DNA of 64,000 nt from Moorena producens (GTDB lineage Bacteria; Cyanobacteriota; Cyanobacteriia; Cyanobacteriales; Coleofasciculaceae), in the NCBI RefSeq assembly GCF_965240435.1, contig NZ_CBDEKO010000003.1; one strand, written 5' to 3'. A model generated the notes under the pieces. That model made no database searches. It was not told the origin of the DNA and saw only the letters and a program-made list of their open reading frames with translations. Position numbers and translations under genes: made by a program. Positions 16,364 to 33,559 of the stretch are shown here, piece by piece (position 1 is the stretch's first letter; each line of letters begins with the position of its first letter).

Positions 16364-19300
16364 CTAATTACGTTCCAGGTATTGTTTGATGAAATCTTGG
16401 ATTTTTTTAACCTGAAAGCCTTGAGCGAATTGCTGGATATGTTGGACAAAAATCGCAAATTTATCATCGGATTTATCCAGAGTATCCACTTGTTCTAGAA
16501 TTTCGCTGATTAAGCCTGTTCTGGCCAAATCATAGAGCTGAGCAAGTTTTTCAGCTGGGGGAGGGATAATCTCTGTAGTTTGACATGAGATGTTTTCAGC
16601 CATCATCTTTTCTCGTTCTTCTTTTCCTTCATACACCCATTCCAGTCTCAGATGCATCCGTAATATCTCGAATAGTTTTTCTGAATCTACTGGCTTGGGC
16701 AGAAACTCGTCCGCCCCAGACTCAATACTCTTGTGTTGGTGAGTATCAAATACGCTGGCTGAGCAAGCAATCACCACTACTGACTGTAATTGGGGAGATT
16801 CTCGCAGCTGTCGGATCAATTCCCAACCATTCATCCCTGGCATGAGCAAGTCCGTAATAATTACCTCAGGCTGACACTGAGCTTTCTCCAAACCCTCTTG
16901 ACCGTTGGTGGCCTCCACCAGTTCAAACCCAAGGGGGGCAAGCAGATTAACCAAAACCATGCGATTTTCCCATTTATCATCCACCACCAGGATTTTCCGC
17001 CCCTGGCCTTTGAAGCCAATGATCCCTGTTTGAGAAGCCATGGGGGCATGTAAGCTTTCTGTGGCTTCTGGCAACTCCAAATCAAACCAAAACACACTGC
17101 CAATTTCCGGCTGGCTCCTGACTTCTAAGGTAGAGTTCATCATACACAGGAGTTTCTGAGTAATTGCTAATCCCAATCCTGTCCCTTCTGCTTTGCGAAA
17201 GGGATTTCCTACTTGCTCAAAGGGTAAAAAAATCTTTTGTAATTGCTCTGGGGTTATACCAATCCCAGTATCTTCCACTTGAAACCGGATTTTTGTCCTT
17301 TTTTCTTTGTTAAGCTCCCTTGTGAAGGAGGGTGATGGGGAGATATCCTTTTGGGTAGATTCAAGGACACTCACTTTCAAGGTTACTTCCCCAGAGTCAG
17401 TAAACTTGATGGCATTACTTAGGAGATTCATCAGTACTTGTCGTAGGCGTTTCTCATCCCCATAGATGCCATTGGGAAGTTGAGAAAGGGGTTGGTAAGT
17501 AAATACAATGTCCTTCTGATTAGCGCGGATACTGCAGATGTCAACCAGGTTTTCCAGAAAGGAGGAAAAATGAAAATTTCTAGGAACGAGTTCCATTTTC
17601 CTGGCTTCAATTTTGGATAGATCTAGAATGTCGTTAATCAGGGTTAACAAGTGTGAACCACACTGATGAATGATGTGGACGCCTTTGAGTTCCTCAGGAG
17701 TCATGGTTTTGGACTTTTTGAGGATTTGGGTGTAGCCGAGGATACCATTAAGGGGAGTTCTTAGTTCGTGGCTCATGTTAGCCAGGAATTCGCTTTTGGC
17801 ACGATTGGCAACTTCCGCAGCCTCTTTAGCATGTTGCAGTGCGGCTTCCGCTTGGTTGCGAGCAGTGACATCAACCATAACCGCTAGAGACCGAACCACC
17901 TGACCTAACTCATCTTGTTCAGCAATAGCGGAAAGAAGCACGTCAATGATTTCTCCATTCTTGCAAATCACATGATAGGGAACATCCAAGCACATTTCTG
18001 TCTCAAAACATTTAGGCAGAAACACCCCTTGGGTGTACTGGCGTGATTCTGTTAAAAAATCAGTTGATTGTCTTCCAATAACTTCATTACGATCGTAGCC
18101 TAACTTCTTTTGCCAGTAGTTACTGACACTGAGCAATTTACCATTGCTATCAATCGAATGCAGCATAACTGGTGTATTTTGATAGAGCGTGCGAAAGCGT
18201 TCTCTGCTCAGCCGCAGCTCCTCCTCGGCCTGTTTGCGATCGCTAATATCTTTATGGGTTCCTGCCATTCGTTTCGGGTTGCCCTTGTGATCATGAGCCA
18301 CGACTTTACCGTAAATGGCAATCCATTTCCATTGACCAGATTTGGTTCGTACTCTATGGTCACAGGCAAAGAGAACCGAACTATTTTTTAGACAAGCATT
18401 CAGCAACGACTTTACCAAGGCTTTATCCTCTGGATGTATCAGCTTTTCCCAACTGCTGAGGTATCCTGGTAGTTCATCCACATCATAGCCCAGCATTTCT
18501 AACCACCGGGGACTGTAATAAACCTCTCCAGTCATGATGTTCCAGTCCCAGAGTCCATCACCGGATCCTTCTAAAGCTAGCTGCAAGCGTTCCTGACTCA
18601 GTCCCAGTTCCTCTTCTGCGTGCTGATGCTCTACCTTAGCCCGTGCTAGTAAACCAGAACCAATACCAATTAGCACCACTAAACTACCATAAAGCAGCCC
18701 TAGCGGCTTCCAGGAATCACGGGAGCGTTCATTTATCACCTTAGGGGAAATGTAGGTGACAATTTTCCAGGTATCGGAGTTAGCATCGATCGTAGTGGGA
18801 TCAGAAAAACGCTTTTGTACAGGAGTTTTACCTGTTTGCATCTCGTAGAAAGGATGAACAGTGGTAAAGGTAAACTTACCGTTAGTAGTTTCAAATTGCC
18901 CCTGATCAGCCTTAGAAATCCGTTGCCATTCTTTTGGAAACCCCTTGGCAAAGGTACGGTCCTTGCGGTTAGGATACATGAATCCCCATTCATCCTCTGG
19001 CTTGGTTCCCTTCAGCCAAAATCCCTCACCATTCAACAGCATCATTTCCCCTAATGACGTATTATTTTCGGCTTCCAAACTATTGATGAAATGTTTAGGA
19101 AAATAGTTAATCATGACGATGCCCCGTTTCTGACCATAACTGTCAAACACAGGGCTACCAACGCGAATCACTGGCTTCAGGGGGTGTTCAATTTTTCCAT
19201 TTTCGACATTCAGGTCTAGGGGAGAGACAAACATTTCTCCCTTTGGCAAAGCTAAGGTTTTTTGAAACCAGTAACGATTTGCCTTGACTTGCAGTTGTTC

Positions 19301-19744
19301 CTCAGGCACAATAACCGGCTGACCTTGGTTAAAGTTGACTCTAACAATTTCTTTACCAGTTGTATCCAGAAAGCGAATTTGGTCATAAAGCCCTTTCTCT
19401 CGAACCAGGATCAGATATTCTTGAGTAAGGGCCATGCGCCACCTTTCAGTTTCTTCGGTAGCATCACTGGTGCTATCTAACATTGCCCGTAACTCATTTT
19501 GATTGGCTAGGAATCTCAAGTCTGATTCAATGACATGGAAATCACTAGCTGCTCCTTGAGCTGCCATCTCAACATTACGAATTTCATTAAGGTTGACTTC
19601 TGTTGTGTCAACCTTAACCTCGGTGCGATGCATGAGCACTAGAAAACTTCCTATCCCTATCGTTAAAGGTATAAAAATAGCTAAAAAGTAGTTTAATTCG
19701 GCTATAGGGCTAATTTTTTTGATAGTTTTCATTGCTCCGATCAA
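16364..19744 (-). CDS. Sensor hybrid histidine kinase paralog A (TM, periplasmic Cache-like domain, TM, 2x PAS, HisKA, HATPase_c, REC, conserved C-terminal tail)
   Basis: 1126 aa. H-box [20 protein letters not shown]-boxes, REC ([12 protein letters not shown]...TDLLMPGMNGWE). The tail is ...LYDLARTGLISEILEQVDTLDKSDDKFAIFVQHIQQFAQGFQVKKIQDFIKQY. Confidence 0.9.
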   Translation of the reverse strand: MIGAMKTIKKISPIAELNYFLAIFIPLTIGIGSFLVLMHRTEVKVDTTEVNLNEIRNVEMAAQGAASDFHVIESDLRFLANQNELRAMLDSTSDATEETERWRMALTQEYLILVREKGLYDQIRFLDTTGKEIVRVNFNQGQPVIVPEEQLQVKANRYWFQKTLALPKGEMFVSPLDLNVENGKIEHPLKPVIRVGSPVFDSYGQKRGIVMINYFPKHFINSLEAENNTSLGEMMLLNGEGFWLKGTKPEDEWGFMYPNRKDRTFAKGFPKEWQRISKADQGQFETTNGKFTFTTVHPFYEMQTGKTPVQKRFSDPTTIDANSDTWKIVTYISPKVINERSRDSWKPLGLLYGSLVVLIGIGSGLLARAKVEHQHAEEELGLSQERLQLALEGSGDGLWDWNIMTGEVYYSPRWLEMLGYDVDELPGYLSSWEKLIHPEDKALVKSLLNACLKNSSVLFACDHRVRTKSGQWKWIAIYGKVVAHDHKGNPKRMAGTHKDISDRKQAEEELRLSRERFRTLYQNTPVMLHSIDSNGKLLSVSNYWQKKLGYDRNEVIGRQSTDFLTESRQYTQGVFLPKCFETEMCLDVPYHVICKNGEIIDVLLSAIAEQDELGQVVRSLAVMVDVTARNQAEAALQHAKEAAEVANRAKSEFLANMSHELRTPLNGILGYTQILKKSKTMTPEELKGVHIIHQCGSHLLTLINDILDLSKIEARKMELVPRNFHFSSFLENLVDICSIRANQKDIVFTYQPLSQLPNGIYGDEKRLRQVLMNLLSNAIKFTDSGEVTLKVSVLESTQKDISPSPSFTRELNKEKRTKIRFQVEDTGIGITPEQLQKIFLPFEQVGNPFRKAEGTGLGLAITQKLLCMMNSTLEVRSQPEIGSVFWFDLELPEATESLHAPMASQTGIIGFKGQGRKILVVDDKWENRMVLVNLLAPLGFELVEATNGQEGLEKAQCQPEVIITDLLMPGMNGWELIRQLRESPQLQSVVVIACSASVFDTHQHKSIESGADEFLPKPVDSEKLFEILRMHLRLEWVYEGKEEREKMMAENISCQTTEIIPPPAEKLAQLYDLARTGLISEILEQVDTLDKSDDKFAIFVQHIQQFAQGFQVKKIQDFIKQYLERN

Positions 19745-19916
19745 CTAGTTTAGTTTTTGCTAGTTTTTAAAAAGTATTCTGTTCACTGTTACCCTTTAAT
19801 TGTTCCCTTTAATTACAAAAAAACTGTAGTCTTATTTTTTTTGTTAAAAAAATAGTCACTACTTCTGCTGCCGCAACTATATATATTGTGTATAATTTAG
19901 TTATGACTCAATCCTA

Positions 19917-19982
19917 TAGCAAAGGGAACAGGAAGCAGGGAGTAGGGACCATGGACCATGGACTAGGAACTAGGGAACAAAA
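19917..19982. repeat. Heptamer repeat block (GGGAACA/GGGAGTA/GGACCAT) forming an inverted partner to the array at 20108-20182
   Basis: Direct reading. Confidence 0.8.
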
Positions 19983-20107
19983 ATTATCAAAATTATTACA
20001 CAGATTGCTATACACAATATAGAGTTTTATGCCTGGTTTTATGGTTTTTTAATTAACAAATTAATTTATAGTTTTTTTTAGCCTAATGAGTTACACAGGA
20101 TTTTTTC

Positions 20108-20182
20108 CCTCTTCCCTACTCCCTACTCCCTACTCCCTACTCCCTACTCCCTACTCCCTACTCCCTACTCCCTGCTCCCTTT
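20108..20182. repeat. STRR-like heptamer tandem array CTCCCTA x10
   Basis: Direct reading. Confidence 0.9.
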
Positions 20183-20192
20183 GCTATAATAA

Positions 20193-22760
20193 TTATTGCT
20201 CCCGATATTGCTGAATAAACTGTCGTATTTTCTTGAGTTTAAAGTCTTCGGCTAATTGACGGAGATGTTGACTGAATGGGATTAACTTATCATCCGTTTT
20301 TTCCAGGATTTCCACTTGTTTTAAAATGTCGCTAATTAAGCCAGTCTTCGCCAAATCGTACAGGTGGTCTAGTGCTTCTTGTGAGGGCGGCACCATCGAC
20401 TTTTTAGTTTTGAGGGGGGATGGTGGCTGGGTCGTGACGTTTTTATCTTTATCTTCTTCTTCTTCTTCATAAACCCATTCTAGTTTCAGATGTACCCGTA
20501 ACTTCTCTAATAGCTTTTTTGACTCTACGGGCTTGGGCAAAAAATCATCTGCTCCCGCCTCACTACTTTGGTTCTGGTGATCATCAAACACACTGGCTGA
20601 ACAAGCGATCACTGGCACTGATGAGAATTGGGAGGATTCTCGCAACCTTTGAATCATCTCAAAACCATCCATCTGTGGCATCAATAAGTCAGTAATAATC
20701 AGATCCGGTTGGAAGTCTGTGGCTTTCTCTAAACCCTCTTTACCATTGCTCGCTTCTTTTAGTTCAAAGCCAAGGGGAGCTAACAGATTCACTAGTACCC
20801 AGCAATTTTCTGGTTTATCATCCACCACCAGAATTTTGCGCCCTTTGCCTGACAAACCAATGATTGTCTTGTCAGGAGCGATCGCATCAGTTACCCCTGT
20901 CGCTTCTGGCAACTCCAAATCAAACCAAAATACACTGCCCACACCCAGCTGGCTTTGCACTTCCAAAGTAGAGCCCATCATCTCAAGCAGTTTCTGAGTA
21001 ATGGCTAATCCCAATCCGGTGCCTTCGGCTCGAGTTAAGGCATTCCCCACCTGCTCGAAGGGCAACACTATGCGTTCGATGTGTTCCGGACTCATACCAA
21101 TACCGGTGTCTTCAATTTCAAACCGAATTGTTCTGATCAGTCCATGGTTGTTTTGTTTTTTGTCTTTCTCCTTTGTTAAGGGCTTTGACTCGATGACATT
21201 TACCTTCAAGGTCACAATTCCCGTGTCAGTAAACTTAATGGCATTACCCAGTAAGTTAATTAGTATTTGTCGCAGCCGTTTTTCATCGCCATGGATGTGA
21301 TTGGGAAGTTGATTCTGGGGTTGGTAACTAAAGAAAAGGTCTTTCTGATCAGCCCGGATGCGACAGATGTCAACTAGATTTTCTAGAAAGGAGGGAAAAT
21401 GAAAATTCCTTGGGTACAGTTCCATTTTCTTGGCCTCGATTTTAGAAATGTCTAAAATATCGTTAATCAGGGTGAGTAGGTGGTTGCCACATTGGTGGAT
21501 AACACGGATGCCCTTGAGTTCCTCAGGGGTCATGATTTTAGAGCGTTGGAGGATTTGGGTATAGCCGAGGATGCCATTGAGGGGAGTGCGCAGTTCATGA
21601 CTCATATTGGCCAGGAACTCACTTTTAGCACGGTTGGCAATTTCAGCGGTTTCTTTAGCTGCTTGTAATTCTTGGCTGAGGAGCTGTTGACGTTGGACTT
21701 CTGCTTCTTTGGATGCTAAAAGATGCTTTACTTGTTTAATCAGATGATTCAAAGAAGTACCTAAGACTCCTATTTCATCTTGGGATATGATCGGGGCTTG
21801 TAGAGTAAAATCATCATCTTTAGTGACGCGCTGGGCTACCTCTGTTACTTGTTTAATGTTACGGATAATCAACAACGTGACCCTGTTGGCAACTAAGCTG
21901 GTAATTGCGGACCCCAGCAAGCACAAAGCACTGATACTTAACCACAACTGTCCCTGCACCTGCTCGAGAGGTGCGGCGGAGTAAAGTAAAACCAGTTTGC
22001 CCCCCTTGCCATTGATCCCAGTGATCTCTACAGTTTTGGCAATGTAGTTTTTCTCGGCAATAGTGACCTGCACTGGTAGGGATTGGATTGGCGGTGGCTG
22101 CCAAGGAGTGTTTTTAGCATCGGTTAAGGTAGAGGCAGTAACCTCAGAATCGTAGAAGGTAACCAGGTGATGGTGCCTATGGGGGCGTAATTGTTCGAGC
22201 CATTCATCGCTAATGGTAATGCCAACGATTATTCCCCCTAAGATTTCCTGGGCAGACTTCACCGAGGTTAGACCGACTAGAAGCGATGCTGTATTGTCTT
22301 CAGCTGGCAGGAAATCGAACAAATCCATGCCAATGCTTGCCGCTTGGTTGAGTGTCTCGTCAATTAGCTCAACTTGGTTAAGGTCTGCCTGCCGCAGTTC
22401 CAGCAATACAGACCCGTTCTTGTCTACGAGTTTAAGCAGATCGAGCTGATAAGATAACTGTATCGGCAGTAAATACTGAAATAGCTTTTCCCGGTTCCCT
22501 GTCGCAACCAATGTGGAAACTTTCTGTTTGTCAGCTATCCACCTTGCTTTCAGAAATAGAGTTTCTTTTTCCTGTTCAAAGGCATGCAATTGTACGGATG
22601 AGAAGTTCTCGATCTTATTTTTCAGTTGCAGTTCTATACGCTTAGTGAAAAAATAGCCCAAACTAAAGGTTCCTACTATCCACATGCCCAGGAACACAGA
22701 GAGCATCGGCCATAGTATTTTTGCTCTGAGGGAAAGTTTCGAGTACATCTGTCGGAACAT
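20193..22760 (-). CDS. Sensor hybrid histidine kinase paralog B (TM, periplasmic domain, TM, HAMP, HisKA, HATPase_c, REC, conserved C-terminal tail)
   Basis: The track ORF runs 20193..22955, but the likely start is [11 protein letters not shown] at 22760, 7 nt after the stop of the upstream PstS-like gene. The transmitter and receiver are ~90% identical to paralog C. Confidence 0.9.
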
Positions 22761-22767
22761 GTCACTA

Positions 22768-23628
22768 CTACTCCTGTTCCTGGCTAGATGGTATAAACCC
22801 TGATTCGAGCAGATGGTTGCCTCCTTCTTTGCTAAAGGCGAAGTCAATAAAGGTTTCGGAGATATCTGAGGGGGTCTGGCGATAGACGATGCCAAGACGA
22901 CGCACCATTGTATACTTACCTGACTTAATGTTTTCGGGGGTGGGTTCCACGCCATCGAGGCTGAGGCGGTTCACAGGTAGCTGATTAGCGATCGCATAGG
23001 CCAGGGAAAAAGCACCGATGCTGTAGGGTGTACTCTGAACTGCTGCAATTAAATCAGCTTCGTGGCGCAAAATCACTGCTTCTGGAGCATTCTTGAGGTC
23101 TGACCCAAGGTAATATTTCCGCAATAGTTTCTTGGCTGACTCATCCTCATGTCGATCCAGCACGATAATTGTTGCGTCTGGTCCCCCTACCTTTTGCCAA
23201 TTGGTCACCTTGCCGCTGTAGATTGCCTTGAGTTGTTCGGTTTGCAAGTTGGTCACTCCTGCGACACTAGGGTGAGTTGCTACTACTAAACCATCTTTAG
23301 CGATTTCCCGATATACTAAAGAGCCATCATCCTCCTCTGGTTTCAACGTTCTGGTAACAGTACCAAGATCAACCAATTTGTCTTTAGTGCCAGCGATCCC
23401 ACCAGGGGATTGACTTTTTGGCAAAAAGGTAATGACTGTGTTTTCAGTCTTGGCTTCATAGGCAGCAGCTAATACCTTCATGGCTGGATAGGGACTCCCT
23501 GCCCCAGTAATCTTGATTTCCTGCTGGGCTTGTTGGAGATTGGTGGCTTGCTTGCTGTTGGGGGTGCAGCTTACCAACATGGCTAGGCTCGTCCCTAGAG
23601 CTAGAGTAAACCAGGTATTTAACTTCAT
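22768..23628 (-). CDS. Periplasmic substrate-binding protein, PstS/PBP-like-2 family
   Basis: Lipoprotein-like signal peptide (LAMLVSC) and an ITGAGSPYP...GGIAG...IGAFSLAY pattern typical of phosphate-binding-protein-like PBPs. It lies immediately upstream of kinase B and is probably co-transcribed with it. Confidence 0.65.
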
Positions 23629-23959
23629 TAGACATCTCCAATAAACTATTAATTTTACTCTTGATAATCACGAGTTTTTGGTGAGCCTCAGACATGCCTT
23701 GAGCAACTTAGGTTCTAGTGCCAGAGTCAATGCCATAAAGGTGCAACACGACCCTTTTTGAAGGAGACAAGGGAGCCTGTTAAAGGTTTGAATGAATTGA
23801 TTGAAACCGTCTTTGACAATCACGATTGATTGGTTAAGTTCATTTTTAATCTAGTCATAGAATATCCTCCTCAAGAGAGATGCAGCCATTGTCTTTTATT
23901 ACTATTATATTTAAACTATTGCGAATACTTTCCAGTTATGGTATTCTACAATAGCCATA

Positions 23960-24001
23960 TTATAGAGTTCCCAGCTAATCTTACCAAATAACAGTTTCAG
24001 C
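23960..24001 (-). promoter_or_regulatory. Copy 2 of the recurring promoter module (CTGAAACTGTTATTTGGTAAGATTAGCTGGGAACTCTATAAT)
   Basis: -35 TTGGTA, a 17-nt spacer, -10 TATAAT. It is followed by a conserved leader and a 12-codon relic ORF. Confidence 0.5.
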
Positions 24002-24092
24002 TTAATCTCTAGTTTATTTCATTACTTTTTCCATGGGATATCATTGGTTATACTCAGATATTGCACAAAGTTTAAAATTTATCTGTAAAGGC

Positions 24093-24192
24093 AGGGAACA
24101 GCGGATCTGGGAACAGCGGATCTGGGAACAGCGGATCTGGGAACAGCGGATCTGGGAACAGCGGATCTGGGAACAGCGGATCTGGGAACAGA
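24093..24192. repeat. Tandem 15-mer GGGAACAGCGGATCT x~6.7
   Basis: Direct reading. One inverted copy (CCAGATCCGCTGTTCCC) lies at 24474-24492. Confidence 0.9.
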
Positions 24193-24461
24193 CTATTTTT
24201 GGTTTTGTACAAAAAATTATTTTTAGTTAGCAAATTATGTAAAAATTTTCAAAGGTATGTGAAGCGTTAAAATTTACTAACCCAAAATAATCTTGTGGAT
24301 TTGTTATTAATATTTAATTGTGATATAGCATTGATTATATGCTTATACTTATAAGCTACATTTAATTTTATTACCTATACTCCCTACTCCCTACTCCCTT
24401 TACTATATAGCGTTTATCATAGCTATGAGGTACAGATATTTTTTTTACTTATTACCTATTC

Positions 24462-24565
24462 CCTGCTCCCTGTTCCCAGATCCGCTGTTCCCTGTTCCCT
24501 ACTCCCTACTCCCTACTCCCTACTCCCTACTCCCTGCTCCCTACTCCCTACTCCCTACTCCCGTT
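24462..24565. repeat. STRR-like heptamer arrays (CTCCCTA/CTCCCTG), the 3' flank of kinase C
   Basis: Direct reading. A smaller block lies at 24379-24405. Confidence 0.9.
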
Positions 24566-24575
24566 GCTATAATAA

Positions 24576-26903
24576 TTATTGCTCCCGATATTGCTGAATA
24601 AACTTTCGGATTTTCTTGAGGTTAAACTCTTCGGCTAATTGACGGAGATGTTGGCTAAATGGGATTAATTGATCATCAGATTTTTCCAGGATTTCCACTT
24701 GTTTTAAAATCTCGCTAATTAAGCCAGTCTTCGCCAGATCGTACAGCTGGTCTAGTGCTTCTTTTGAGGGGGGCACTATCAAGTTTTCAGTTTTGAGGGA
24801 GGATGGTGCCTTGGCCGTGACGTTTTTATCTTTATTTTCTTCTCCTTCATAAACCCATTCTAGTTTCAGATGTCCCCGTAACTTCTCTAATAGCTTTTTT
24901 GACTCTACTGGCTTGGGCAGAAAATCATCCGCTCCCGCGTCAATACTGTGATGCTGGTGATCATCAAACACACTGGCTGAACAAGCGATCAATGGCACTG
25001 ATGAGAATTGGGAGGATTCTCGCAACCGTCGGATCATCTCAAAACCATCCATCTGTGGCATCAACAAGTCAGTAATAATCAGATCCGGTTGGAACTGTTT
25101 AGCTTTGTCCAAACCTTCTTTACCATTGGTTGCTTCTTCGAGTTCAAAGCCAAGGGGAGCGAGCAGATTCACCAATACCCAGCGATTTTCTTGTTTATCA
25201 TCCACCACCAGAATTTTGCGCTCAATGCCAAGGAAACCAATAATTGTCTGATCAGGAACAATCACATCAGTTACTTCTGTAGCTTCTGGCAAGTCCAAAT
25301 CAAACCAAAATACACTGCCCACACCCAGCTGGCTTTGCACTTCCAACGTAGACCCCATCATCTCAAGTAGTTTCTGAGTAATGGCTAATCCCAATCCGGT
25401 GCCTTCGGCTCGACTTAAGGCATTCCCCACCTGCTCGAAAGGCAACACTATGCGTTCGATGTGTTCCGGACTCATACCAATACCGGTGTCTTCAATTTCA
25501 AACCGAATTGTTCTGATCACTCCATGGTTGTTTAGCTTTTTGTCTTCCTTTGTTGTTAAGGGCTTTGACTCCAGTACATTTACCTTGAAGGTCACTGCTC
25601 CAGTGTCAGTAAATTTAATCCCATTACCGAGTAAGTTGATTAGTATTTGTCGCAGGCGTTTTTCATCGGCATGGATGTGATTGGGCAGTTGAGCAAAGGG
25701 TTGGTAACTAAAGGAAATTTCCTTCTGATCAGCGCGGATACAGCAGATGTCAACTAGGTTTTCTAAAAAGGAGGGAAAATGAAAATTCCTTGGGTACAGT
25801 TCCATTTTCTTGGCCTCGATTTTAGAAATGTCTAAAATATCGTTAATCAAGGTCAGTAGGTGGTTGCCACATTGGTGGATGACACGGATGCCCTTGAGTT
25901 CCTCAGGACTTATGATTTTAGAGCGTTGGAGGATTTGGGTATAACCGAGGATGCCATTGAGGGGAGTGCGCAGTTCATGACTCATATTGGCCAGGAACTC
26001 ACTTTTGGCACGGTTGGCAATTTCAGCGCTTTCTTTAGCCCCTTGTAATTCTTCCCTCAGGAGCTGTTGACGTTGAATTTCTACATCTTGAGCTGCTAAC
26101 AGTGTTTTACTGGTATAGAAGGCTAATAAGGCTGCGGTTGAAATTGATGCAATCATGCTAATCAAAATGATTCGAGTCCGAAGCCTTTCAGAAGCCTCTA
26201 GGACAGCTTTGGCATGTGGTCTTTCCTCCTCAACCTCCTCTATTATTTCCTCAAGATCATAGACGAAACTCCTGAGGTTTAGCCCTAAAGGACTCTTGCT
26301 TAAATCTAAAAACTTTTTTTGGGCTTTCTCGATGTGTTCTGGGGTCAAATTCGACGGATCAATTTGCCGCAATAGTGCCTCTATACGTTGGGTGTATACT
26401 TGTATTAGGCTGTCATAATTTTTGATAAGGTTATTTAAAAGTTCAAGTTCCTCTGCTAGCTCATCCACCTCTGGATTTTTGTAAGAGTCTTTTAAGGCCA
26501 ACCAGTTTTGCTGGGCTAATCTGGAATGCTTTTTAAAACGAGAATACTCTTCATGAAAAATCTCTGGTTGCTGGAACAAAACAGCAAAGTATTGATGGTG
26601 TATTTGTACTTCCAGCAGGTAACGTTGCAAGTCCATGAGAAGCTCGCTTTCTTCTAAGGTATCTTCTCTTAAGTTCTGAGCATAGTTTTGGTAGTTATTG
26701 CCAATAAGGAGTCCAACTGTTGTTCCCAGGACAGCAATCCCAAGGGCAATACCATACCCATAGGCAATCTTTTGAGTGATACTAAGGCGATTTAGCTGCT
26801 TTCTGAACCAAACAACAGGAGCTGTTAAGGGATGGGATGAGTTGGTTGAAACCATATTTGACAATGAAGATGTGGTGCTTGGGTCTGTTTTTAATTTAGT
26901 CAT
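24576..26903 (-). CDS. Sensor hybrid histidine kinase paralog C (TM, helical sensor region, TM, HisKA, HATPase_c, REC, conserved C-terminal tail)
   Basis: The track ORF starts at 26933. The start MTKLKTDP at 26903 is preferred because a GAGGAGGA RBS lies 6 nt upstream of it. Confidence 0.9.
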   Translation of the reverse strand: MTKLKTDPSTTSSLSNMVSTNSSHPLTAPVVWFRKQLNRLSITQKIAYGYGIALGIAVLGTTVGLLIGNNYQNYAQNLREDTLEESELLMDLQRYLLEVQIHHQYFAVLFQQPEIFHEEYSRFKKHSRLAQQNWLALKDSYKNPEVDELAEELELLNNLIKNYDSLIQVYTQRIEALLRQIDPSNLTPEHIEKAQKKFLDLSKSPLGLNLRSFVYDLEEIIEEVEEERPHAKAVLEASERLRTRIILISMIASISTAALLAFYTSKTLLAAQDVEIQRQQLLREELQGAKESAEIANRAKSEFLANMSHELRTPLNGILGYTQILQRSKIISPEELKGIRVIHQCGNHLLTLINDILDISKIEAKKMELYPRNFHFPSFLENLVDICCIRADQKEISFSYQPFAQLPNHIHADEKRLRQILINLLGNGIKFTDTGAVTFKVNVLESKPLTTKEDKKLNNHGVIRTIRFEIEDTGIGMSPEHIERIVLPFEQVGNALSRAEGTGLGLAITQKLLEMMGSTLEVQSQLGVGSVFWFDLDLPEATEVTDVIVPDQTIIGFLGIERKILVVDDKQENRWVLVNLLAPLGFELEEATNGKEGLDKAKQFQPDLIITDLLMPQMDGFEMIRRLRESSQFSSVPLIACSASVFDDHQHHSIDAGADDFLPKPVESKKLLEKLRGHLKLEWVYEGEENKDKNVTAKAPSSLKTENLIVPPSKEALDQLYDLAKTGLISEILKQVEILEKSDDQLIPFSQHLRQLAEEFNLKKIRKFIQQYREQ

Positions 26904-27042
26904 ATATATCCTCCTCAAGGGAGATGTAGCCATTATTTTTTAGTACTATTAAAAACTATTGCGAATTATTTAATAATTGTGGGGTTGTACATACCGGGGT
27001 TGTAGATACAATTGTAAATAAAGTGGTAAATACAATAGTTAT

Positions 27043-27085
27043 ATTATAGAATTCCCAACCAGTCTTACCCAAGTAACAGTTTCAG
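27043..27085 (-). promoter_or_regulatory. Copy 3 of the recurring promoter module
   Basis: Minus-strand sense CTGAAACTGTTACTTGGGTAAGACTGGTTGGGAATTCTATAAT. Confidence 0.5.
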
Positions 27086-27156
27086 TCTCCTATCAATTAC
27101 CCTTGCTTCTTTCGTTTGGTATTTATAGTGTTAGTCACCAGGTTGATCTAATTACT

Positions 27157-29382
27157 TTACAGGTATTGTTTGATGAATTCTCGAATTTTTTTGATTTGAA
27201 ATTTTTCGGATAATTGACGGATAGCTTGGGAAAATGGTATAAATATATCATCATTTTTTTCTAGCTCATCGACTTCCTCTAAAAGGTCATTGATTAAGCC
27301 TGACATAGCCAGATCGTAGAGGTAGACTAGTTTTTCTTTTGGAGGACTAACAATTTGTGTTGTTTGAAGTGATATGTTTTTATAATTATGATTTTTTTGT
27401 TCTTGACATTCAACAACTTTTTTATGATTTTTGTGAAAATTTATTTCATGGTATTCTGGATAAGTTTGTACGTCTAAATCTATAGTAAAAATACTCCCTT
27501 TGCCTGGTTTACTCTCGACATTAATGTCACCTCCCATCATCTTGACAAGTTTCTGGGTAATTGCTAAACCCAGTCCAGTACCTTCCACATAACCAGAGAT
27601 ATTTTCTAGCTTTTCAAAGGGCAAAAATAGTTGAGATAATTGCTCGCTATTCATCCCAATACCGGTGTCTTTTACTTCAAAGCGAATAGTGGTAAGATGT
27701 TGGAGTTTATTTGTTATTTCATCTTTAGCATTTTTCCTTGATTCAAGGACACTAACCTTAAAGGCTACTCCCCCTGTTTCAGTAAATTTAATGCCATTGT
27801 CGAGTAAGTTAATCAGCACTTGTCGCAAGCGTTTTTCGTCAACAGTAATTGCTCTAGGTAGTCGAGAAGTCGCTTGGTAACTATAGGAAATACCCTTTTG
27901 GTCTGCTTTCACCTGACAAATTGCCACGATGTCCTTCAAGAAGGTACCAAAATCAAGCGTTTGGGGGTGGAGTTCTAATTGATCAGCTTCAATTGTACAG
28001 AGGTCTAAAATCTCATTGATCAGGCTGAGCAGATTAGAGCCGCACTGCTCGATAATATCAATACCTTTTTTGTCGTTAGCAGTTAGACTAGTTGATTTTT
28101 TCAGGATTTGAGCGTAACCCAAAATACCGTTGAGGGGAGTACGGACTTCGTGGCTGATGTTGGCAAGAAATATACTTTTAGCACGGTTAGCAGCTTCACT
28201 TTCCACTGCTGCCCGAACTGCTGCTTCTTTAGCTTTCTGGAGTTCCACTGTCCGTTGCTCAACTCGCTGTTCTAGCTGTCTTTCACTCTCCACCAGTGCT
28301 GCTACTGCTGAGATGCGATCGCTAATATAGATAGCTAGCAATATGGTCAGTAATAGTCCCCCCAAGGAAACAGTCCAGGGATACCAGGTTCTTCGACTCG
28401 CTATATATTCGGAATTGGGCTTAGACAGAATCAACCATTTCTGTCCTGAGACATCAAGAATTACAGTATGGTGTAACCCATTTCTGAGGGTAGCAAGGTT
28501 TTCGTCCTTCAAGTCCTTTGATGCTTTGGGTGTACTAGATGAATAGGTATAGAGCAATCGCTCGTCTGTTGGCGCAGATTCGTGAAACAGATAAACATCA
28601 ATCCCCCTCGGTTGTCGATACTTTAAAGCCCTGTCTACAATGTCTCCAATCAAAAACGCACTTGAGGCAAAACCTTCCAGATTTTGGCGACGGGATATAA
28701 CTGAATTAGTAGGTGTATTTTGTCGATAAATTGGCCATAAAATTAGGAATCCTAGTTGGTGCTGGGTGTTTTTATGCATTAATTTCATCGGTGCAGTTGC
28801 GATCGCTTTGCCACTATCCCGTGATAATTCCAAAGCTTCTAAACTTAGAGAATTCGAGGCTAGGTCAAATCCCAACATTGTCTCATTATCGTGGTATGGC
28901 TCAAGAAAATAGACCGGAAAATATTCTTCTCTGGGTTTAGCCTTAATCAGCTCTCCCTGAGGATTCTTTTCTGTAATTTTAAAGTTAGGAAAATCCTCTT
29001 GTTTGGCAGCTTGTTCGTAAGCGGATCGTTGCTCATGGGGTACCCAAGGAATCCACTGTAGGGCTTGAATATCTGAATGATTTGACAAGTAAGGCTTGAC
29101 AAACGTCCGAAATTCCTGACGAGTCACTTTTTCGGAGGCAGCATAGACCCCAACAATCGATTCCAGTTGGTGTAGATTTTTCTCAAGGCTTCTTTGGAGC
29201 AAGGAAACAATATCCTTGGCATCTTGTTCAAACTCTTTTTCGATGGTTTTGTTTTCCAAATTCCAAGTTCCCATGAACGTTAGTAGGGAAAACATAACCC
29301 CTGTAAAAATAGTTATTGCTAGGGGCAGAGAATGGACTGTTTTTTGGAGATTTATTAGAGTATTAAGTAGTTTGTTATTCAT
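27157..29382 (-). CDS. Sensor histidine kinase paralog D (TM, CHASE domain, TM, HisKA, HATPase_c, conserved C-terminal tail, no REC)
   Basis: The periplasmic region (EFRTFVKPYLSNHSDIQALQWIPWV...YFPVYFLEPY...LGFDLAS) is CHASE-like. It has an H-box and G-boxes, and the tail is ...LYDLAMSGLINDLLEEVDELEKNDDIFIPFSQAIRQLSEKFQIKKIREFIKQYL. Confidence 0.85.
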   Translation of the reverse strand: MNNKLLNTLINLQKTVHSLPLAITIFTGVMFSLLTFMGTWNLENKTIEKEFEQDAKDIVSLLQRSLEKNLHQLESIVGVYAASEKVTRQEFRTFVKPYLSNHSDIQALQWIPWVPHEQRSAYEQAAKQEDFPNFKITEKNPQGELIKAKPREEYFPVYFLEPYHDNETMLGFDLASNSLSLEALELSRDSGKAIATAPMKLMHKNTQHQLGFLILWPIYRQNTPTNSVISRRQNLEGFASSAFLIGDIVDRALKYRQPRGIDVYLFHESAPTDERLLYTYSSSTPKASKDLKDENLATLRNGLHHTVILDVSGQKWLILSKPNSEYIASRRTWYPWTVSLGGLLLTILLAIYISDRISAVAALVESERQLEQRVEQRTVELQKAKEAAVRAAVESEAANRAKSIFLANISHEVRTPLNGILGYAQILKKSTSLTANDKKGIDIIEQCGSNLLSLINEILDLCTIEADQLELHPQTLDFGTFLKDIVAICQVKADQKGISYSYQATSRLPRAITVDEKRLRQVLINLLDNGIKFTETGGVAFKVSVLESRKNAKDEITNKLQHLTTIRFEVKDTGIGMNSEQLSQLFLPFEKLENISGYVEGTGLGLAITQKLVKMMGGDINVESKPGKGSIFTIDLDVQTYPEYHEINFHKNHKKVVECQEQKNHNYKNISLQTTQIVSPPKEKLVYLYDLAMSGLINDLLEEVDELEKNDDIFIPFSQAIRQLSEKFQIKKIREFIKQYL

Positions 29383-29504
29383 AATATTACCTTTGCTTAG
29401 TCACTTATGACATCAATCTTAATGTTTGTAATTAGTCATTATCTGAAATCTAAAAAATAGGCTACAGATAACTTGTTATGAAATCAACAAGGCATAGTCT
29501 GAAT

Positions 29505-32336
29505 TCACTGAATATAGTCTTTAATAAAATTTCTAATTTTTTTCAACTGAAAATTTTGAGCTAATTCACGGATATGTTGGACAAAATCACTAGTGTTTGG
29601 ATCAGATTTTTCTAGGTTATCGATTTGTTTTAAAAGGTCATTGATTAAGCCTGCCCTAGCCAGATCGTAAAGTTGGGAAAGTTTCTCGACTGGAGGAGTC
29701 ACAATCTCTAGGGTTTGAGATGAGATGTTTTTCTTCTTCCTACTTCCTCCTTCCTGCCTTGCTTGATAAATCCATTCCAGTTTCAGATGCACTTGTAACA
29801 TCTCTAGTAGCTTTTCTGCCTCTACTGGTTTAGGCAAAAAATCATCCGCTCCAGCCTCACTACTTTTTTCCTTGTCGGTGTCAAATACACTAGCCGAAGA
29901 CGCAATCACTACTTTTGAGTGCAATTGGGGGGATTGTCGCAACTGTCGGATCATCTCAAAGCCATCCATCTGTGGCATCAACAAGTCAGTGATAATCAGG
30001 TCTGGTGGAAATGCTGTGGCTTCCTCTAAACCCTCTTGACCACTGCTAGCCTCCACTAGTTCAAATCCCAGGGGAGCCAGCAGATTTACAATCACCCAGC
30101 GATTTTCTTGTTTATCATCCACCACCAGAATTGTGGGTGGCTGACCTTTGAAGCCAATAATCCCTCTTTGAGGAGTCATGGGTTTGGATGCAGCTGTGGT
30201 TTCTTTTAACTGCAAATCGAACCAAAACACAGTGCCAATGCCCAACTGGCTGCTTACTTCTAACTTAGACCCCATCATCTGAACCAGTTTCTGAGTAATG
30301 GCTAATCCCAATCCGGTCCCTTGTGCTTTATTTAAGGGATTCCCCACTTGCTCGAAAGGCAAAAATATCCGTTCGATTTGTTCCGGACTCATGCCAATAC
30401 CCGTGTCTTCAATTTTAAATCGAATTGTTGTTAACAGTTCTTGGCTATTGGTCATGTGTCCATTCTCCTTCTCCCTTGATTTAAGGACACTTACTGTAAA
30501 CTTAACGTCTCCAGTGTCAGTAAACTTAATCCCATTACCCAGTAAGTTAATCAGCACTTGTCGCAGGCGTTTTTCATCAGCGTGTATGCCGGTGGGAAGT
30601 TCAGAAAGGGGTTGGTAAGTAAACAAAATGTCCTTGTTTTGAACTCTGATTTCGCAGATGTCAATCAGGTTCTGAAGAAAAGATGGAAAATGAAAATCTG
30701 TCCGGTAGAGTTCCATTTTACCTGCTTCAATTTTGGACAGGTCTAAAATGTCATTAATCAGGGTTAGCAGATGATTACCACATTGATGGATAATGTCAAT
30801 CCCCTTGAGAGACTGATCAGACAAGCTTTTGGAGCGTTTCAGGATTTGGGTGTAACCGAGGATGCCATTGAGAGGGGTGCGCAGTTCATGGCTGATGTTG
30901 GCGAGAAATTCGCTTTTGGCACGGTTGGCCACTGCGCTTTGCGCCGCAGCGCGAACGGCTGCTTCTTTTGCCTGTTTGAGGTCTTCCTCAGCTTGTTTGC
31001 GATCGCTAATATCGGTTCTGATCGCCAAATACTGGTAAGGTTTGTCTCTATCATCCAAGAACGGTACAATGGTGGTATCGACCCAGTAATAGGTGCCATC
31101 TTTCGCTTGATTCTTAATTTCTCCCTGCCAAACTTGACCACTAGCAATAATTGACCAGAGGTTTCGGAAGAATTCCTTGGGGTGGTAATTGGAATTGATC
31201 AATAGATGGCTTTGTCCAATCAGTTCTTCCCTAGAATATTTAGAGATATGACAGAACCGATCATTGACATAGGTAATTACCCCTTTTTGGTCAGTAATAG
31301 CTAGGATTGAACCTTGATCTAAAGCATACTTGAAATCTGATAATTCTTTGACTGACCTTTGCAGTTTTTCCTCTGTTTCTTGTTGTTTAGCAATCTCTAA
31401 GACCAGACGTTTATTCACATGTTCTAGTGTACAATAGGTACGCTGATAATCCAGTATTAATCCTACTAGGGGGATCAGGTAGGCAATAATTTTGAGGAAA
31501 TGGGCGATATGGAAATGACTGTCGAAGAGTGCTTGTGAACCAAAAGCCATGTGGAGTTGGGCGACTGTATCGGGAATAGTACTCACAATTAAGGAGTAAG
31601 AGAACAGACTGGGATACCGTTGGTGAAAGCTTGGGTAAATAAAAATGCCAGCAGCAATAAACAGAAGCAATGGCAGGATGTCCCATGGTCGGGGGATAAT
31701 GAAGTTGGGAAATGTTGTTTCCGGCAGAAGCTCCCTGGTTGCACAGATGTGAATTATGCCATAGGCAATCAACCCAAACCCCAAGCTGACAATAATGACA
31801 AAACCCAAGCTGCTGGTTTGGTTTTTTTCTACCCAGCTTCTCCTTGAGAAAAGGCTAGTTCCTAGAATTAGGATTAGTGCATTGAAAAGCCGACAGAGTG
31901 TCCAGGTAAATGGAATTAAATTCCGATTATCGGCGACAGCATCAATTAAGTGCTCAGCAGCCACAGTATTAAAGGTATCCATCACACCAGCAAAAAAAAG
32001 TGATAGGCCGATGATAGGAACGATTGGGTCTTTGGTGATACTATAGTTTGTGAAGGCTAAGCAAACCGTAAAAACAGCCGTACAGACAGCACTCCACTCC
32101 AGGAGTGTGTGTACAAAACTTCCGGACAGGACGGAGTGCATGGCATCATGAAGTTCATGGGGTTCCCATTCAGAGGCTGCCGAGAGGTCAAACAGTTCCT
32201 GATGGGTACTAAAATCAACCCCTAATTGATGCAGAAGATAGGGTAAAATGCAGATAAAAACCACTGTCCAAACCAATGGTTTGGGGAATCTAGTTTGGCC
32301 GACAAGCCTGGCTTTTATCATAGTTTTCATTCCCAA
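29505..32336 (-). CDS. Sensor hybrid histidine kinase paralog E (multi-TM MASE1-like membrane domain, PAS, HisKA, HATPase_c, REC, conserved C-terminal tail)
   Basis: ~300-aa polytopic N-terminus, PAS (VNDRFCHISKYSREELIGQ), H-box [22 protein letters not shown] (ILVVDDKQENRW...[12 protein letters not shown]) and the tail. Confidence 0.9.
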   Translation of the reverse strand: MGMKTMIKARLVGQTRFPKPLVWTVVFICILPYLLHQLGVDFSTHQELFDLSAASEWEPHELHDAMHSVLSGSFVHTLLEWSAVCTAVFTVCLAFTNYSITKDPIVPIIGLSLFFAGVMDTFNTVAAEHLIDAVADNRNLIPFTWTLCRLFNALILILGTSLFSRRSWVEKNQTSSLGFVIIVSLGFGLIAYGIIHICATRELLPETTFPNFIIPRPWDILPLLLFIAAGIFIYPSFHQRYPSLFSYSLIVSTIPDTVAQLHMAFGSQALFDSHFHIAHFLKIIAYLIPLVGLILDYQRTYCTLEHVNKRLVLEIAKQQETEEKLQRSVKELSDFKYALDQGSILAITDQKGVITYVNDRFCHISKYSREELIGQSHLLINSNYHPKEFFRNLWSIIASGQVWQGEIKNQAKDGTYYWVDTTIVPFLDDRDKPYQYLAIRTDISDRKQAEEDLKQAKEAAVRAAAQSAVANRAKSEFLANISHELRTPLNGILGYTQILKRSKSLSDQSLKGIDIIHQCGNHLLTLINDILDLSKIEAGKMELYRTDFHFPSFLQNLIDICEIRVQNKDILFTYQPLSELPTGIHADEKRLRQVLINLLGNGIKFTDTGDVKFTVSVLKSREKENGHMTNSQELLTTIRFKIEDTGIGMSPEQIERIFLPFEQVGNPLNKAQGTGLGLAITQKLVQMMGSKLEVSSQLGIGTVFWFDLQLKETTAASKPMTPQRGIIGFKGQPPTILVVDDKQENRWVIVNLLAPLGFELVEASSGQEGLEEATAFPPDLIITDLLMPQMDGFEMIRQLRQSPQLHSKVVIASSASVFDTDKEKSSEAGADDFLPKPVEAEKLLEMLQVHLKLEWIYQARQEGGSRKKKNISSQTLEIVTPPVEKLSQLYDLARAGLINDLLKQIDNLEKSDPNTSDFVQHIRELAQNFQLKKIRNFIKDYIQ

Positions 32337-33556: not shown

Positions 33557-33559
33557 CAG

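What the first reader, a model, noticed from the sequence alone, without database searches (positions are those of the whole stretch)
16364..32336. Tandem array of five sensor-kinase paralogs sharing an uncharacterised C-terminal module
Five co-oriented genes carry unrelated N-terminal sensor domains: Cache-like with 2x PAS (A), TM-HAMP (B), a helical TM sensor (C), CHASE (D), and a multi-TM MASE1-like domain plus PAS (E). Their HisKA/HATPase cores are near-identical ([19 protein letters not shown]...), and B and C are ~90% identical through transmitter and receiver. All five end in the same ~60-aa helical tail: P-x-EKL-x-x-LYDLA-x-x-GLI-x-x-IL-x-Q-V-x-x-L-x-K-x-DD-x-x-x-x-F-x-Q-[HA]-I-x-x-L-x-x-x-F-x-x-KKI-x-x-FI-x-x-Y. 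Four of them place it after a REC domain. Kinase D lacks REC and fuses the tail directly to the HATPase domain. The tail is therefore an autonomous module, probably a docking or output domain. The layout suggests a signal-integration hub in which diversified inputs converge on one shared partner recognised by the tail.
Basis: seen in the sequence. Interest (0 to 1): 0.75.

Follow-up and report, generated by a model that had tools for sequence, protein, structure and literature searches.

The report
Undescribed tail domain on sensor kinases
Five neighbouring sensor kinases of a Moorena cyanobacterium end in the same small four-helix domain, which no domain database describes, which is widespread in bacteria, and which is nearly always encoded just upstream of one particular type of response-regulator gene, so it probably links these kinases to their partner.

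Summary
Five co-oriented minus-strand kinase genes (16364-32336) have unrelated sensor domains. All five share a HisKA-HATPase(-REC) cassette and a ~65-aa C-terminal tail (tails 53-60% identical, B/C 88%). Kinase D has no REC, and its tail follows HATPase directly.

The module is widespread: 4,164 clusters at 50% identity, always at the extreme C-terminus of this kinase type, sometimes in two tandem copies.

The new result is the genomic context. Tail-bearing kinases are immediately followed by a gene with a distinct receiver type, here called REC* (51-69% identical across phyla). Its outputs vary: kinase, LuxR HTH, sigma-54 activator, GGDEF-EAL. The window has one REC* gene, the REC-kinase at 14564-16054, directly downstream of kinase A. 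One protein fuses a tail-kinase to a REC*-kinase.

Best reading: an autonomous module that couples or docks these kinases to REC* regulators. This is inferred, not shown.

The parts
16364..19744 (-). Kinase A: Cache-like sensor, 2 PAS, HisKA-HATPase, REC, tail (1126-aa ORF; likely start at 19732)
   Evidence: ORF. Pfam. An ortholog in another Moorena assembly starts at residue 5.
16367..16579 (-). Tail of A (71 aa including the PPP lead-in)
   Evidence: AlphaFold four helices, pLDDT 88.5 for the tail alone and 90-98 in the REC+tail model.
20193..22955 (-). Kinase B: periplasmic region (weak dCache_3), HAMP, HisKA-HATPase, REC, tail; true start probably ATG at 22760
20196..20405 (-). Tail of B
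22768..23628 (-). PBP_like_2 (PstS-type) periplasmic binding protein, stop 7 nt before the start of B; probable ligand-binding partner of B
   Evidence: Pfam E 7.6e-36. Junction sequence. The pairing is conserved in other Moorena.
24576..26933 (-). Kinase C: helical membrane sensor without Pfam match, HisKA-HATPase, REC, tail
24579..24791 (-). Tail of C
27157..29382 (-). Kinase D: CHASE, HisKA-HATPase, no REC, tail directly after HATPase
   Evidence: The same REC-less architecture is found in Moorena orthologs and in unrelated metagenome kinases L026 and L035.
27160..27363 (-). Tail of D
29505..32336 (-). Kinase E: MASE3, PAS, HisKA-HATPase, REC, tail
29508..29714 (-). Tail of E
14564..16054 (-). 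REC*-kinase: N-terminal REC* receiver, coiled-coil linker, DHp with a long insertion, HATPase. Candidate shared partner of the tail-kinases and the only REC* in the window.
   Evidence: Pfam. REC* orthogroup 51-69% identical across phyla versus 34-37% to the kinases' own REC. Conserved position downstream of tail-kinases. Only one copy in the window.
13620..14039 (-). Single-domain response regulator; its 5' end overlaps the next gene's end by 4 nt; possible third tier
   Evidence: Gene order conserved in Moorena.
11785..13623 (-). REC-PAS-kinase, possible third tier

Best explanation
The tail is an autonomous four-helix domain of about 65 residues. It belongs to one lineage of TorS/ArcB/BarA-like transmitter cassettes and sits where those kinases carry HPt, at the extreme C-terminus. 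It has no phospho-accepting histidine.

Its most likely job is to couple the kinase to its cognate response regulator, one that carries a particular receiver type (REC*). It would do this by docking that regulator, or by giving specificity, so that phosphoryl groups from the DHp histidine reach REC*. The phosphoryl group could pass directly, or after shuttling through the kinase's own REC.

In this window, five kinases with different sensors carry the same coupling module. The only REC* protein is the REC-kinase at 14564-16054, directly downstream of kinase A. The cluster therefore most likely works as a many-to-one funnel into a second-tier kinase. That kinase could then act on the regulator at 13620 and the REC-PAS-kinase at 11785.

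Shown:
- the domain's existence, its fold prediction and its autonomy;
- its restriction to this kinase type;
- the genomic coupling to REC*.

Inferred:
- physical docking;
- the direction and route of phosphotransfer;
- convergence of all five kinases.
For: **Autonomy and conservation**
- 4,164 clusters at 50% identity match the tail profile at E<=1e-3, and 1,185 at E<=1e-10.
- The match ends a median of 3 residues from the C-terminus. 14 proteins carry two tandem copies.
- Of 51 full-length hits, 51 have HisKA, 50 HATPase and 47 REC, with highly diverse sensors.

**Fold**
- AlphaFold gives four short helices. pLDDT is 88.5 for the tail alone. With 95 homologs in the alignment it is 90-98 across the tail.
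- The linker to REC has low confidence and pTM is 0.66, so no fixed packing on the kinase's own REC is predicted.

**Coupling to REC***
- In Stigonema, Allocoleopsis, Chroococcales, Moorena and two further metagenome or genome contigs, the gene right after the tail-kinase starts with a receiver 51-69% identical to that of 14564-16054. A Chloroflexia locus has it two genes upstream.
- Reciprocal test: 80 metagenome loci were fetched with the REC* profile. 25 encode a tail on the same strand ending 10-250 bp before the REC* gene. Among loci with at least 55% REC* identity and enough upstream sequence, the count is 10 of 17.
- Outputs behind REC* vary: 13 LuxR HTH, 7 kinases, 1 GGDEF-EAL and 1 sigma-54 activator. 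The constant feature is therefore the receiver.

**REC-less kinases**
- Kinases with a tail but no REC (like D) are also followed by REC* regulators, in L026 and L035. The tail's role therefore does not depend on the kinase's own REC.

**Fusion protein**
- P0043 joins sensor-HK-REC-tail directly to REC*-HK-tail in one polypeptide.

**Same slot as HPt**
- Where a REC* gene follows a hybrid kinase without the tail, that kinase has a real Pfam Hpt (L055, L082, L037; L076 only sub-threshold, E 0.005).
- The transmitters score best against TorS, BarA and ArcB models, and the matches stop just before their HPt.
- No HPt motif exists in the window.
Against: - No binding or phosphotransfer data exist. 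No complex could be modelled here.
- Gene adjacency of a kinase and its regulator is expected for any two-component pair. It shows that REC* proteins are the cognate regulators. It does not show that the tail is what recognises them.
- Some tail-kinases have no REC* neighbour: P0038, L010/L012 and L014, and kinases B-E here.
- In HPt-bearing relatives a further C-terminal helical domain follows HPt, and it may be distantly related to the tail (hhalign P 5e-4). If that relationship is real, the tail is an accessory to HPt rather than a stand-in for it, and its role could be regulatory.
- The five-to-one convergence is unsupported outside this gene layout.
Confidence: 0.45

Rival explanations
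1. The tail acts within the kinase itself. It could be a dimerisation or regulatory cap that packs on the DHp/CA or on the kinase's own REC and sets the balance between kinase and phosphatase activity. In this reading the link to REC* genes only reflects shared ancestry of the whole kinase-regulator pair.
For: The tail is strictly tied to one transmitter lineage. It is always at the extreme C-terminus. Orphan tail-kinases exist. A possibly related C-terminal domain coexists with HPt in relatives, so it need not touch the regulator at all.
Against: AlphaFold gives a low-confidence linker and pTM 0.66 for REC+tail, so no confident packing on the kinase's own REC. The tail persists when REC is deleted (kinase D, L026, L035). 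Tandem duplication of the tail fits a binding platform better than a structural cap.
Confidence: 0.25
2. The tail is a shrunken, histidine-less HPt (pseudo-HPt). It would be descended from the HPt of TorS/ArcB-type kinases and would retain only receiver binding, as a decoy or a tether.
Confidence: 0.12
3. The tail recruits something other than the regulator. Candidates are a scaffold or localisation factor, an auxiliary phosphatase-like activity on phospho-receivers, or a small ligand.
For: Conserved acidic positions on predicted helix surfaces (E36 and D39 of the profile, each in more than 75% of sequences; D or E at position 18) are not explained by core packing. Helical phosphatases of receivers (Spo0E, CheZ) are also small helical proteins; this comparison is from general knowledge.
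Against: None of the known phosphatase motifs (DxxxQ, ExxN, SQELD) is present. Apart from the REC* gene, no other gene class recurred among the neighbours that were inspected in the loci examined.
Confidence: 0.1
4. The tail is a real phosphotransfer domain that uses a non-histidine residue or a lineage-specific histidine.
For: It sits in the HPt slot in kinases that have a genuine REC but no HPt. Four of the five tails here have a His at profile position 48, and the REC-less kinase D has Ala there.
Against: That His is present in only 20 of 175 family members, including REC-bearing ones that have K, E, T or L there. No other phosphorylatable residue is conserved. The REC-less D-type architecture needs no relay.
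Confidence: 0.04

Closest known systems
HPt domain (Pfam PF01627) of unorthodox hybrid kinases such as ArcB, BarA, TorS and EvgS
   Different: No HxxKG motif and no conserved His. No Pfam or hhalign similarity. About 65 aa with 13-15-residue helices, against about 100-120 aa for HPt. Also found directly after HATPase with no REC in between.
Pseudo-HPt proteins (for example plant AHP6, which lacks the phospho-accepting His and interferes with the relay; from general knowledge and the plant surveys listed)
   Same: An HPt-shaped module without the histidine that could still bind receivers.
   Different: AHP6-type proteins are clear sequence members of the HPt family. The tail is not. No bacterial counterpart fused to kinases was found in the literature searches.
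Hybrid kinases without HPt that signal to an adjacent regulator, for example Burkholderia AtsR/AtsT (cited in PMC5295037; my recollection of the original JBC 2013 paper is that transfer is direct from the DHp His and that the internal REC modulates it) and Leptospira LvrA/LvrB (hybrid kinase plus REC-kinase)
   Same: An HK-REC kinase lacking HPt, paired with a regulator or a REC-kinase encoded beside it. The internal REC acts as a modulator rather than an obligatory relay step.
   Different: No shared C-terminal module has been described for those systems. I did not test whether AtsR or LvrA carries the tail. NCBIfam LvrA/LvrB models match only the generic kinase and REC parts, below cut-off.
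CheA P2 domain (a dedicated CheY-docking domain of a histidine kinase; general knowledge)
   Same: A non-catalytic kinase domain whose role is to dock the cognate receiver and speed transfer. This is the functional model proposed here.
   Different: Unrelated alpha/beta fold, internal position in the protein, and chemotaxis-specific.

Membership tests
HPt domain (PF01627) | Match to the family profile | tested here: not met
   The five tails and 60 diverse tails give no Hpt hit at E<=10. hhalign of the tail profile against HPt profiles gives probability 2.3%, 0.3% and 0.4%. The HPt probe sequences were validated: ArcB matched PDB 1a0b exactly, and all 120 listed hits of the probe alignment carry PF01627.
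HPt domain (PF01627) | Conserved solvent-exposed phospho-accepting His (HxxKG-type motif) | tested here: not met
   The column-by-column count over 175 tails finds no column with His in more than 20 sequences. D has Ala, and relatives have K, E, T, L or N at the position of the His in A, B, C and E.
HPt domain (PF01627) | Four-helix-bundle fold | tested here: inconclusive
HPt domain (PF01627) | Located after the receiver of a hybrid kinase, serving a downstream regulator | tested here: met
   47 of 51 full-length family members are HK-REC-tail. A regulator gene follows immediately in many loci.
Hybrid (HK-REC) histidine kinases, HisKA type | HisKA with H-box His, HATPase_c, and a receiver with the catalytic Asp/Asp/Ser-Thr/Lys set | tested here: met
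   Pfam HisKA, HATPase_c and Response_reg are above cut-off in A, B, C and E. D has HisKA and HATPase only. H-box [10 protein letters not shown], the acceptor D in TDLLMP, S in CSAS and K in PKP are visible in the alignment.
TorS / ArcB / BarA equivalogs (NCBIfam) | Whole-protein score above the curated cut-off, including the HPt region | tested here: not met
   The best model is TIGR02956 TorS at 339.7 bits against a cut-off of 676.5. The match ends at model position 846 of 967, before HPt. The same holds for metagenome tail-kinases.
DHp extension | Helices contiguous with the DHp hairpin | tested here: not met
   The tail is separated from HisKA by HATPase_c and, in four of the five kinases, by REC plus a 20-40-residue low-confidence linker.
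The tail family itself (no database entry found) | Profile match PPxEELxxL[YF][DE]LAxxG[DNL]IxxIxxxAxxLExxDxxxxPFAxxLxxLAxxFxxxxIxxFIxxY at the C-terminus of a HisKA kinase | tested here: met
   All five tails match. The family has 4,164 representative clusters.
REC* receiver orthogroup (defined here) | N-terminal receiver at least ~50% identical to residues 1-150 of the 14564-16054 protein, with the EEVLARVxxHL helix running into a coiled coil | tested here: met
   14564-16054 is the only such receiver in the window. Partners in other phyla are 51-69% identical, the kinases' own REC 34-37%, and two other regulator receivers in the window about 27%.

The most novel reading that the evidence does not exclude
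The tail, perhaps together with the distantly similar domain that follows HPt in relatives, is a new class of receiver-recognition domain. It would let HPt-less hybrid kinases hand phosphoryl groups to a dedicated regulator family. This would explain how the very numerous HK-REC kinases of cyanobacteria signal despite having few HPt domains. It would also make multi-sensor funnels such as this five-kinase array a general wiring principle.
Probability: 0.2. Interest if true: 0.8.

Novelty: new variant of a known kind. Interest (0 to 1): 0.6.

Why it matters
Hybrid kinases make up more than 10% of cyanobacterial two-component proteins (PMC4558063), and most have no HPt partner assigned. How their signal leaves the kinase is largely unknown.

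This work gives three usable things. The first is a conserved, easily recognised module present in thousands of such kinases. The second is a defined receiver type encoded next to it. The third is a natural fusion of the two. Together they form a concrete pair to test for docking and phosphotransfer.

For this locus, the result turns a list of five paralogs into a testable circuit. Five different inputs (Cache/PAS, binding-protein/HAMP, a helical sensor, CHASE, MASE3/PAS) would feed one second-tier REC-kinase.

At the least, the domain deserves a family entry so that these kinases stop being annotated as ending at REC.

Tried and rejected
- **The His in the 'QHI' motif as a phospho-acceptor that goes with presence of REC.** This looked attractive because D lacks both. 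Rejected, because REC-bearing relatives have K, E, T or L at that position.
- **The single-domain regulators at 13620 and 42826 as the partner.** 42826's receiver is about 27% identical to the REC* type and 13620's gave no reported blastp hit to it. In the loci outside Moorena that were examined, the gene next to the tail-kinase was a REC* multidomain protein, not a single-domain regulator.
- **Confident packing of the tail on the kinase's own REC.** Not seen in the AlphaFold REC+tail model (pTM 0.66, disordered linker).
- **First protein-database search with the tail alone.** It returned only short fragments, apparently because of length-biased candidate selection. The exhaustive representative search was needed instead.
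- **Genome scans with the wider tail alignments.** These failed because no stretch was conserved enough. Only the five-sequence alignment worked, and it found mainly cyanobacteria.
- **afdb50 fold library.** Not available.
- **Promoter and terminator scans of the array.** At chance level.
- **Literature.** Four searches found no description of the module. The AtsR primary paper could not be opened.
Full report
**What is in the window**

Five ORFs lie head to tail on the minus strand between 16364 and 32336. Pfam gives the following:
- A: Cache-like HK_sensor_dom_bact, two PAS, HisKA, HATPase_c, REC.
- B: weak dCache_3, HAMP, HisKA, HATPase_c, REC.
- C: no recognised sensor, then HisKA, HATPase_c, REC.
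- D: CHASE, HisKA, HATPase_c, and no REC.
- E: MASE3 (not MASE1), PAS, HisKA, HATPase_c, REC.

All five end in the same stretch of about 65 residues. In a tblastn search of the whole 64 kb, the five tails find one another at E 1e-20 to 1e-27 and find nothing else. 24 columns are invariant among the five.

Region by region:
- Transmitters are 55-75% identical (B/C 92%).
- Receivers are 71-76% identical (B/C 89%).
- Tails are 53-60% identical (B/C 88%).
- Sensor regions are unrelated.
- B and C share 90.7% DNA identity over 1546 nt, covering only the C-terminal cassette. This indicates a recent duplication or gene conversion of the cassette behind different sensors.

- E carries MASE3.
- The cores are similar rather than near-identical.
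- B almost certainly starts at the ATG at 22760, 7 nt after the stop of a PstS-like binding-protein gene (22768-23628).

The window comes from Moorena bouillonii or a very close relative. The tail-A query segment matches NZ_MKZS01000001.1 at 100% and the encoded proteins there are 94-100% identical (A 98.4%). The whole gene order is conserved in at least two other Moorena assemblies.

**Is the tail a known domain?**

No sequence database recognises it:
- No Pfam family matches the five tails or 60 diverse tails, even at E<=10.
- No NCBIfam model covers it.
- Profiles of 5 or 60 tails hit only designed coiled coils in the PDB sequence set.
- Four literature searches found no description.

AlphaFold predicts a compact bundle of four helices of 13-15 residues each. 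Mean pLDDT is 88.5 for the tail alone. In a REC+tail model built on 95 homologs, pLDDT is 90-98 across the tail.

**The HPt question**

In favour:
- Eight more HPt or CheA-P1 structures are in the top 50.
- The tail sits where ArcB, BarA and TorS carry HPt.
- The transmitters here score best against exactly those families, and the match ends just before their HPt.

Against:
- Foldseek finds nothing significant and no HPt in its top 50.
- hhalign of the tail profile gives probabilities of 2.3%, 0.3% and 0.4%. The three HPt profiles used included HPt domains from kinases that serve the same regulator family. The probe sequences were validated.
- No column of the family alignment has a conserved histidine.

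The His in the QHI motif of A, B, C and E is absent from D, which also lacks REC. That looked like a meaningful correlation. It dissolves in the wider family: only 20 of 175 tails have His there, and REC-bearing relatives have K, E, T or L.

The tail therefore is not a member of the HPt family. It may share the general bundle shape.

**How widespread it is and what it travels with**

An exhaustive HMMER scan of 1.84 billion representative proteins found 4,164 clusters at E<=1e-3 and 1,185 at E<=1e-10.

Among the best 150 hits:
- The match ends a median of 3 residues from the C-terminus.
- 14 proteins carry two tandem copies.

Among 51 full-length hits:
- All have HisKA, 50 have HATPase_c and 47 have REC.
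- These sit behind PAS, GAF, HAMP, Cache, CHASE, CHASE2, MASE3, ammonium-transporter or Ser/Thr-kinase inputs.

Named sources are mostly cyanobacteria. They also include Chloroflexota, Rhodothermales and Obscuribacterales. High-GC metagenome contigs also carry it.

The tail is thus an autonomous module, widely conserved and tied to one transmitter lineage.

**The genomic partner**

This is the main new result.

In the window, kinase A is followed after 309 bp by a 496-aa protein (14564-16054). It has an N-terminal receiver, a coiled coil and a kinase core.

The same arrangement recurs elsewhere. A tail-kinase is immediately followed by a gene starting with a closely related receiver in Stigonema, Allocoleopsis and Chroococcales, and in two further contigs found through diverse tail-kinases. 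A Chloroflexia locus has it two genes upstream.

These receivers, here called REC*, are 51-69% identical to one another across phyla. They share a conserved alpha5 that runs into a coiled coil. They are only 34-37% identical to the kinases' own REC and about 27% identical to two other regulator receivers in the window (RR 42826 and the REC-PAS-kinase).

The reciprocal test was to fetch 80 metagenome loci with a REC* profile. The results:
- 25 loci encode a tail on the same strand, ending 10-250 bp before the REC* gene.
- Among loci with at least 55% REC* identity and enough upstream sequence, 10 of 17 do.

What follows REC* varies. Of 22 partners, 13 have a LuxR-type HTH, 7 are kinases, one is GGDEF-EAL and one is a sigma-54 activator. 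The conserved element is therefore the receiver, which is the part a kinase recognises.

Three further observations sharpen the picture:
- Kinases with the tail but no REC, like kinase D, are also followed by REC* regulators. L026 is GAF-HK-tail followed by an NtrC-type regulator. L035 is eight PAS-HK-tail followed by REC-GGDEF-EAL. The tail therefore does not need the kinase's own REC.
- One protein, P0043, is a natural fusion: sensor-HK-REC-tail joined by about 35 residues to REC*-HK-tail.
- Where a REC* gene follows a hybrid kinase that lacks the tail, that kinase has a bona fide Pfam Hpt after REC (L055, L082, L037; L076 matches Hpt only below Pfam's threshold, E 0.005).

**A complication**

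Those HPt-bearing kinases carry a further helical domain of about 70 residues after HPt, ending in an FDFD-x-A-xxx-L motif. Against a thin profile of it, the tail aligns in register over 55 columns with P 5e-4 and probability 32%.

This is a lead, not a finding. If it is real, the tail is the counterpart of an accessory domain that can coexist with HPt, rather than a replacement for HPt.

**Mechanism proposed**

The tail most likely couples this kinase lineage to REC*-type regulators by docking or specificity. Phosphoryl groups from the DHp histidine would then reach REC*, either directly or after cycling through the kinase's own REC.

Direct transfer by an HPt-less hybrid kinase, with the internal REC as a modulator, has precedent in Burkholderia AtsR/AtsT. 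The reference is listed in PMC5295037; the mechanistic detail is from my memory of the primary paper, which I could not open.

AlphaFold gives no confident packing of the tail on the kinase's own REC (pTM 0.66 with a disordered linker). That fits a tethered, outward-facing module.

In this locus:
- The only REC* is the kinase at 14564-16054.
- No HPt-type motif exists anywhere in the 64 kb.
- The layout E-D-C-(binding protein)-B-A-REC*kinase-RR-REC-PAS-kinase is conserved in Moorena.

The most economical reading is five sensors feeding one second-tier kinase, with a possible third tier at 13620 and 11785.

Shown:
- the domain, its autonomy and its distribution;
- the REC* linkage.

Inferred:
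- physical docking;
- the phosphotransfer route;
- that B-E use the same partner as A.

**Rivals**

- An in-cis regulatory or dimerisation role is the strongest rival. Adjacency proves the regulator is cognate, not that the tail recognises it.
- A pseudo-HPt origin remains possible at the fold level.
- Recruitment of another factor, or phosphatase-like action on receivers, cannot be excluded.
- A true phosphotransfer role is unlikely.

**Verdict**

The domain appears undescribed. The specific partner proposed was wrong, and the hub model is still inference.

I rate this a new variant of a known kind: two-component hybrid kinases with an uncatalogued accessory domain and a defined partner receiver. 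Interest is moderate to high because it offers a concrete handle on how HPt-less hybrid kinases are wired.

Noticed in passing
window 20193-22955 vs 24576-26933: Kinases B and C share 90.7% DNA identity over 1546 nt. The shared stretch covers only the HisKA-to-stop cassette, and their sensor halves are unrelated. This points to recent duplication or gene conversion of the output cassette behind different sensors.
   Followed up: partly
window 22758-23628: A PstS-like PBP_like_2 binding-protein gene ends 7 nt before the probable real start of kinase B (ATG 22760, AGGAG about 10 nt upstream). The 920-aa ORF call for B overlaps it and is probably too long. The binding protein is a likely co-sensor for B, and the pairing is conserved in other Moorena.
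   Followed up: partly
protein P0043 (1569 aa, metagenome): A natural fusion of a tail-kinase to a REC*-kinase that itself ends in a tail: HK-REC-tail(1000-1063)-REC*(1102-1232)-HK-tail(1504-1567). I did not check whether it is a real fusion or a merged gene call.
   Followed up: partly
loci L055, L082, L037, L076, L063, L067 (upstream kinases): Hybrid kinases with a genuine HPt carry a further unannotated helical C-terminal domain of about 70 aa ending in an FDFD-x-A-xxx-L motif. L101 and the L020 partner have a similar domain without HPt. It may be distantly related to the tail (hhalign P 5e-4).
   Followed up: partly
window 14564-16054: The REC*-kinase has an insertion of about 110-150 residues between its H-box (AHEINTPL) and the HATPase domain. 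Pfam does not cover it, and the HisKA match is partial. I did not examine what this insertion is.
   Followed up: no
window 16589-17032 (REC of kinase A) and homologs: In the AlphaFold model, the receiver of this kinase lineage gains two short extra strands: IIGF before beta1 and the invariant W-x-Y after alpha5. W132 and Y134 are invariant in 95 homologs.
   Followed up: no
window 33077-35022: A stand-alone MEKHLA-domain protein (33077-33556, E 4e-59) lies next to a TnpB/IS605 OrfB-type gene (33616-35022), just upstream of kinase E. The MEKHLA gene keeps this position in other Moorena.
   Followed up: no
window 35163-39065: A 1300-aa protein combines a two-partner-secretion TPS domain, TPR repeats and a C-terminal CHAT protease domain.
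   Followed up: no
loci L001 and L004 (Moorena bouillonii PNG5-198 assembly): In the reference assembly, kinase B is truncated to 561 aa and kinase D is split into 555 aa plus 158 aa. Both are intact in the window. The cause could be frameshifts, assembly errors or pseudogenisation in that strain.
   Followed up: no
locus L014 (Oscillatoria sp. SIO1A7): Two tail-kinases lie in tandem, one with a CHASE2 sensor and one fused to an ammonium-transporter domain. No REC* gene lies within the fetched flank.
   Followed up: no
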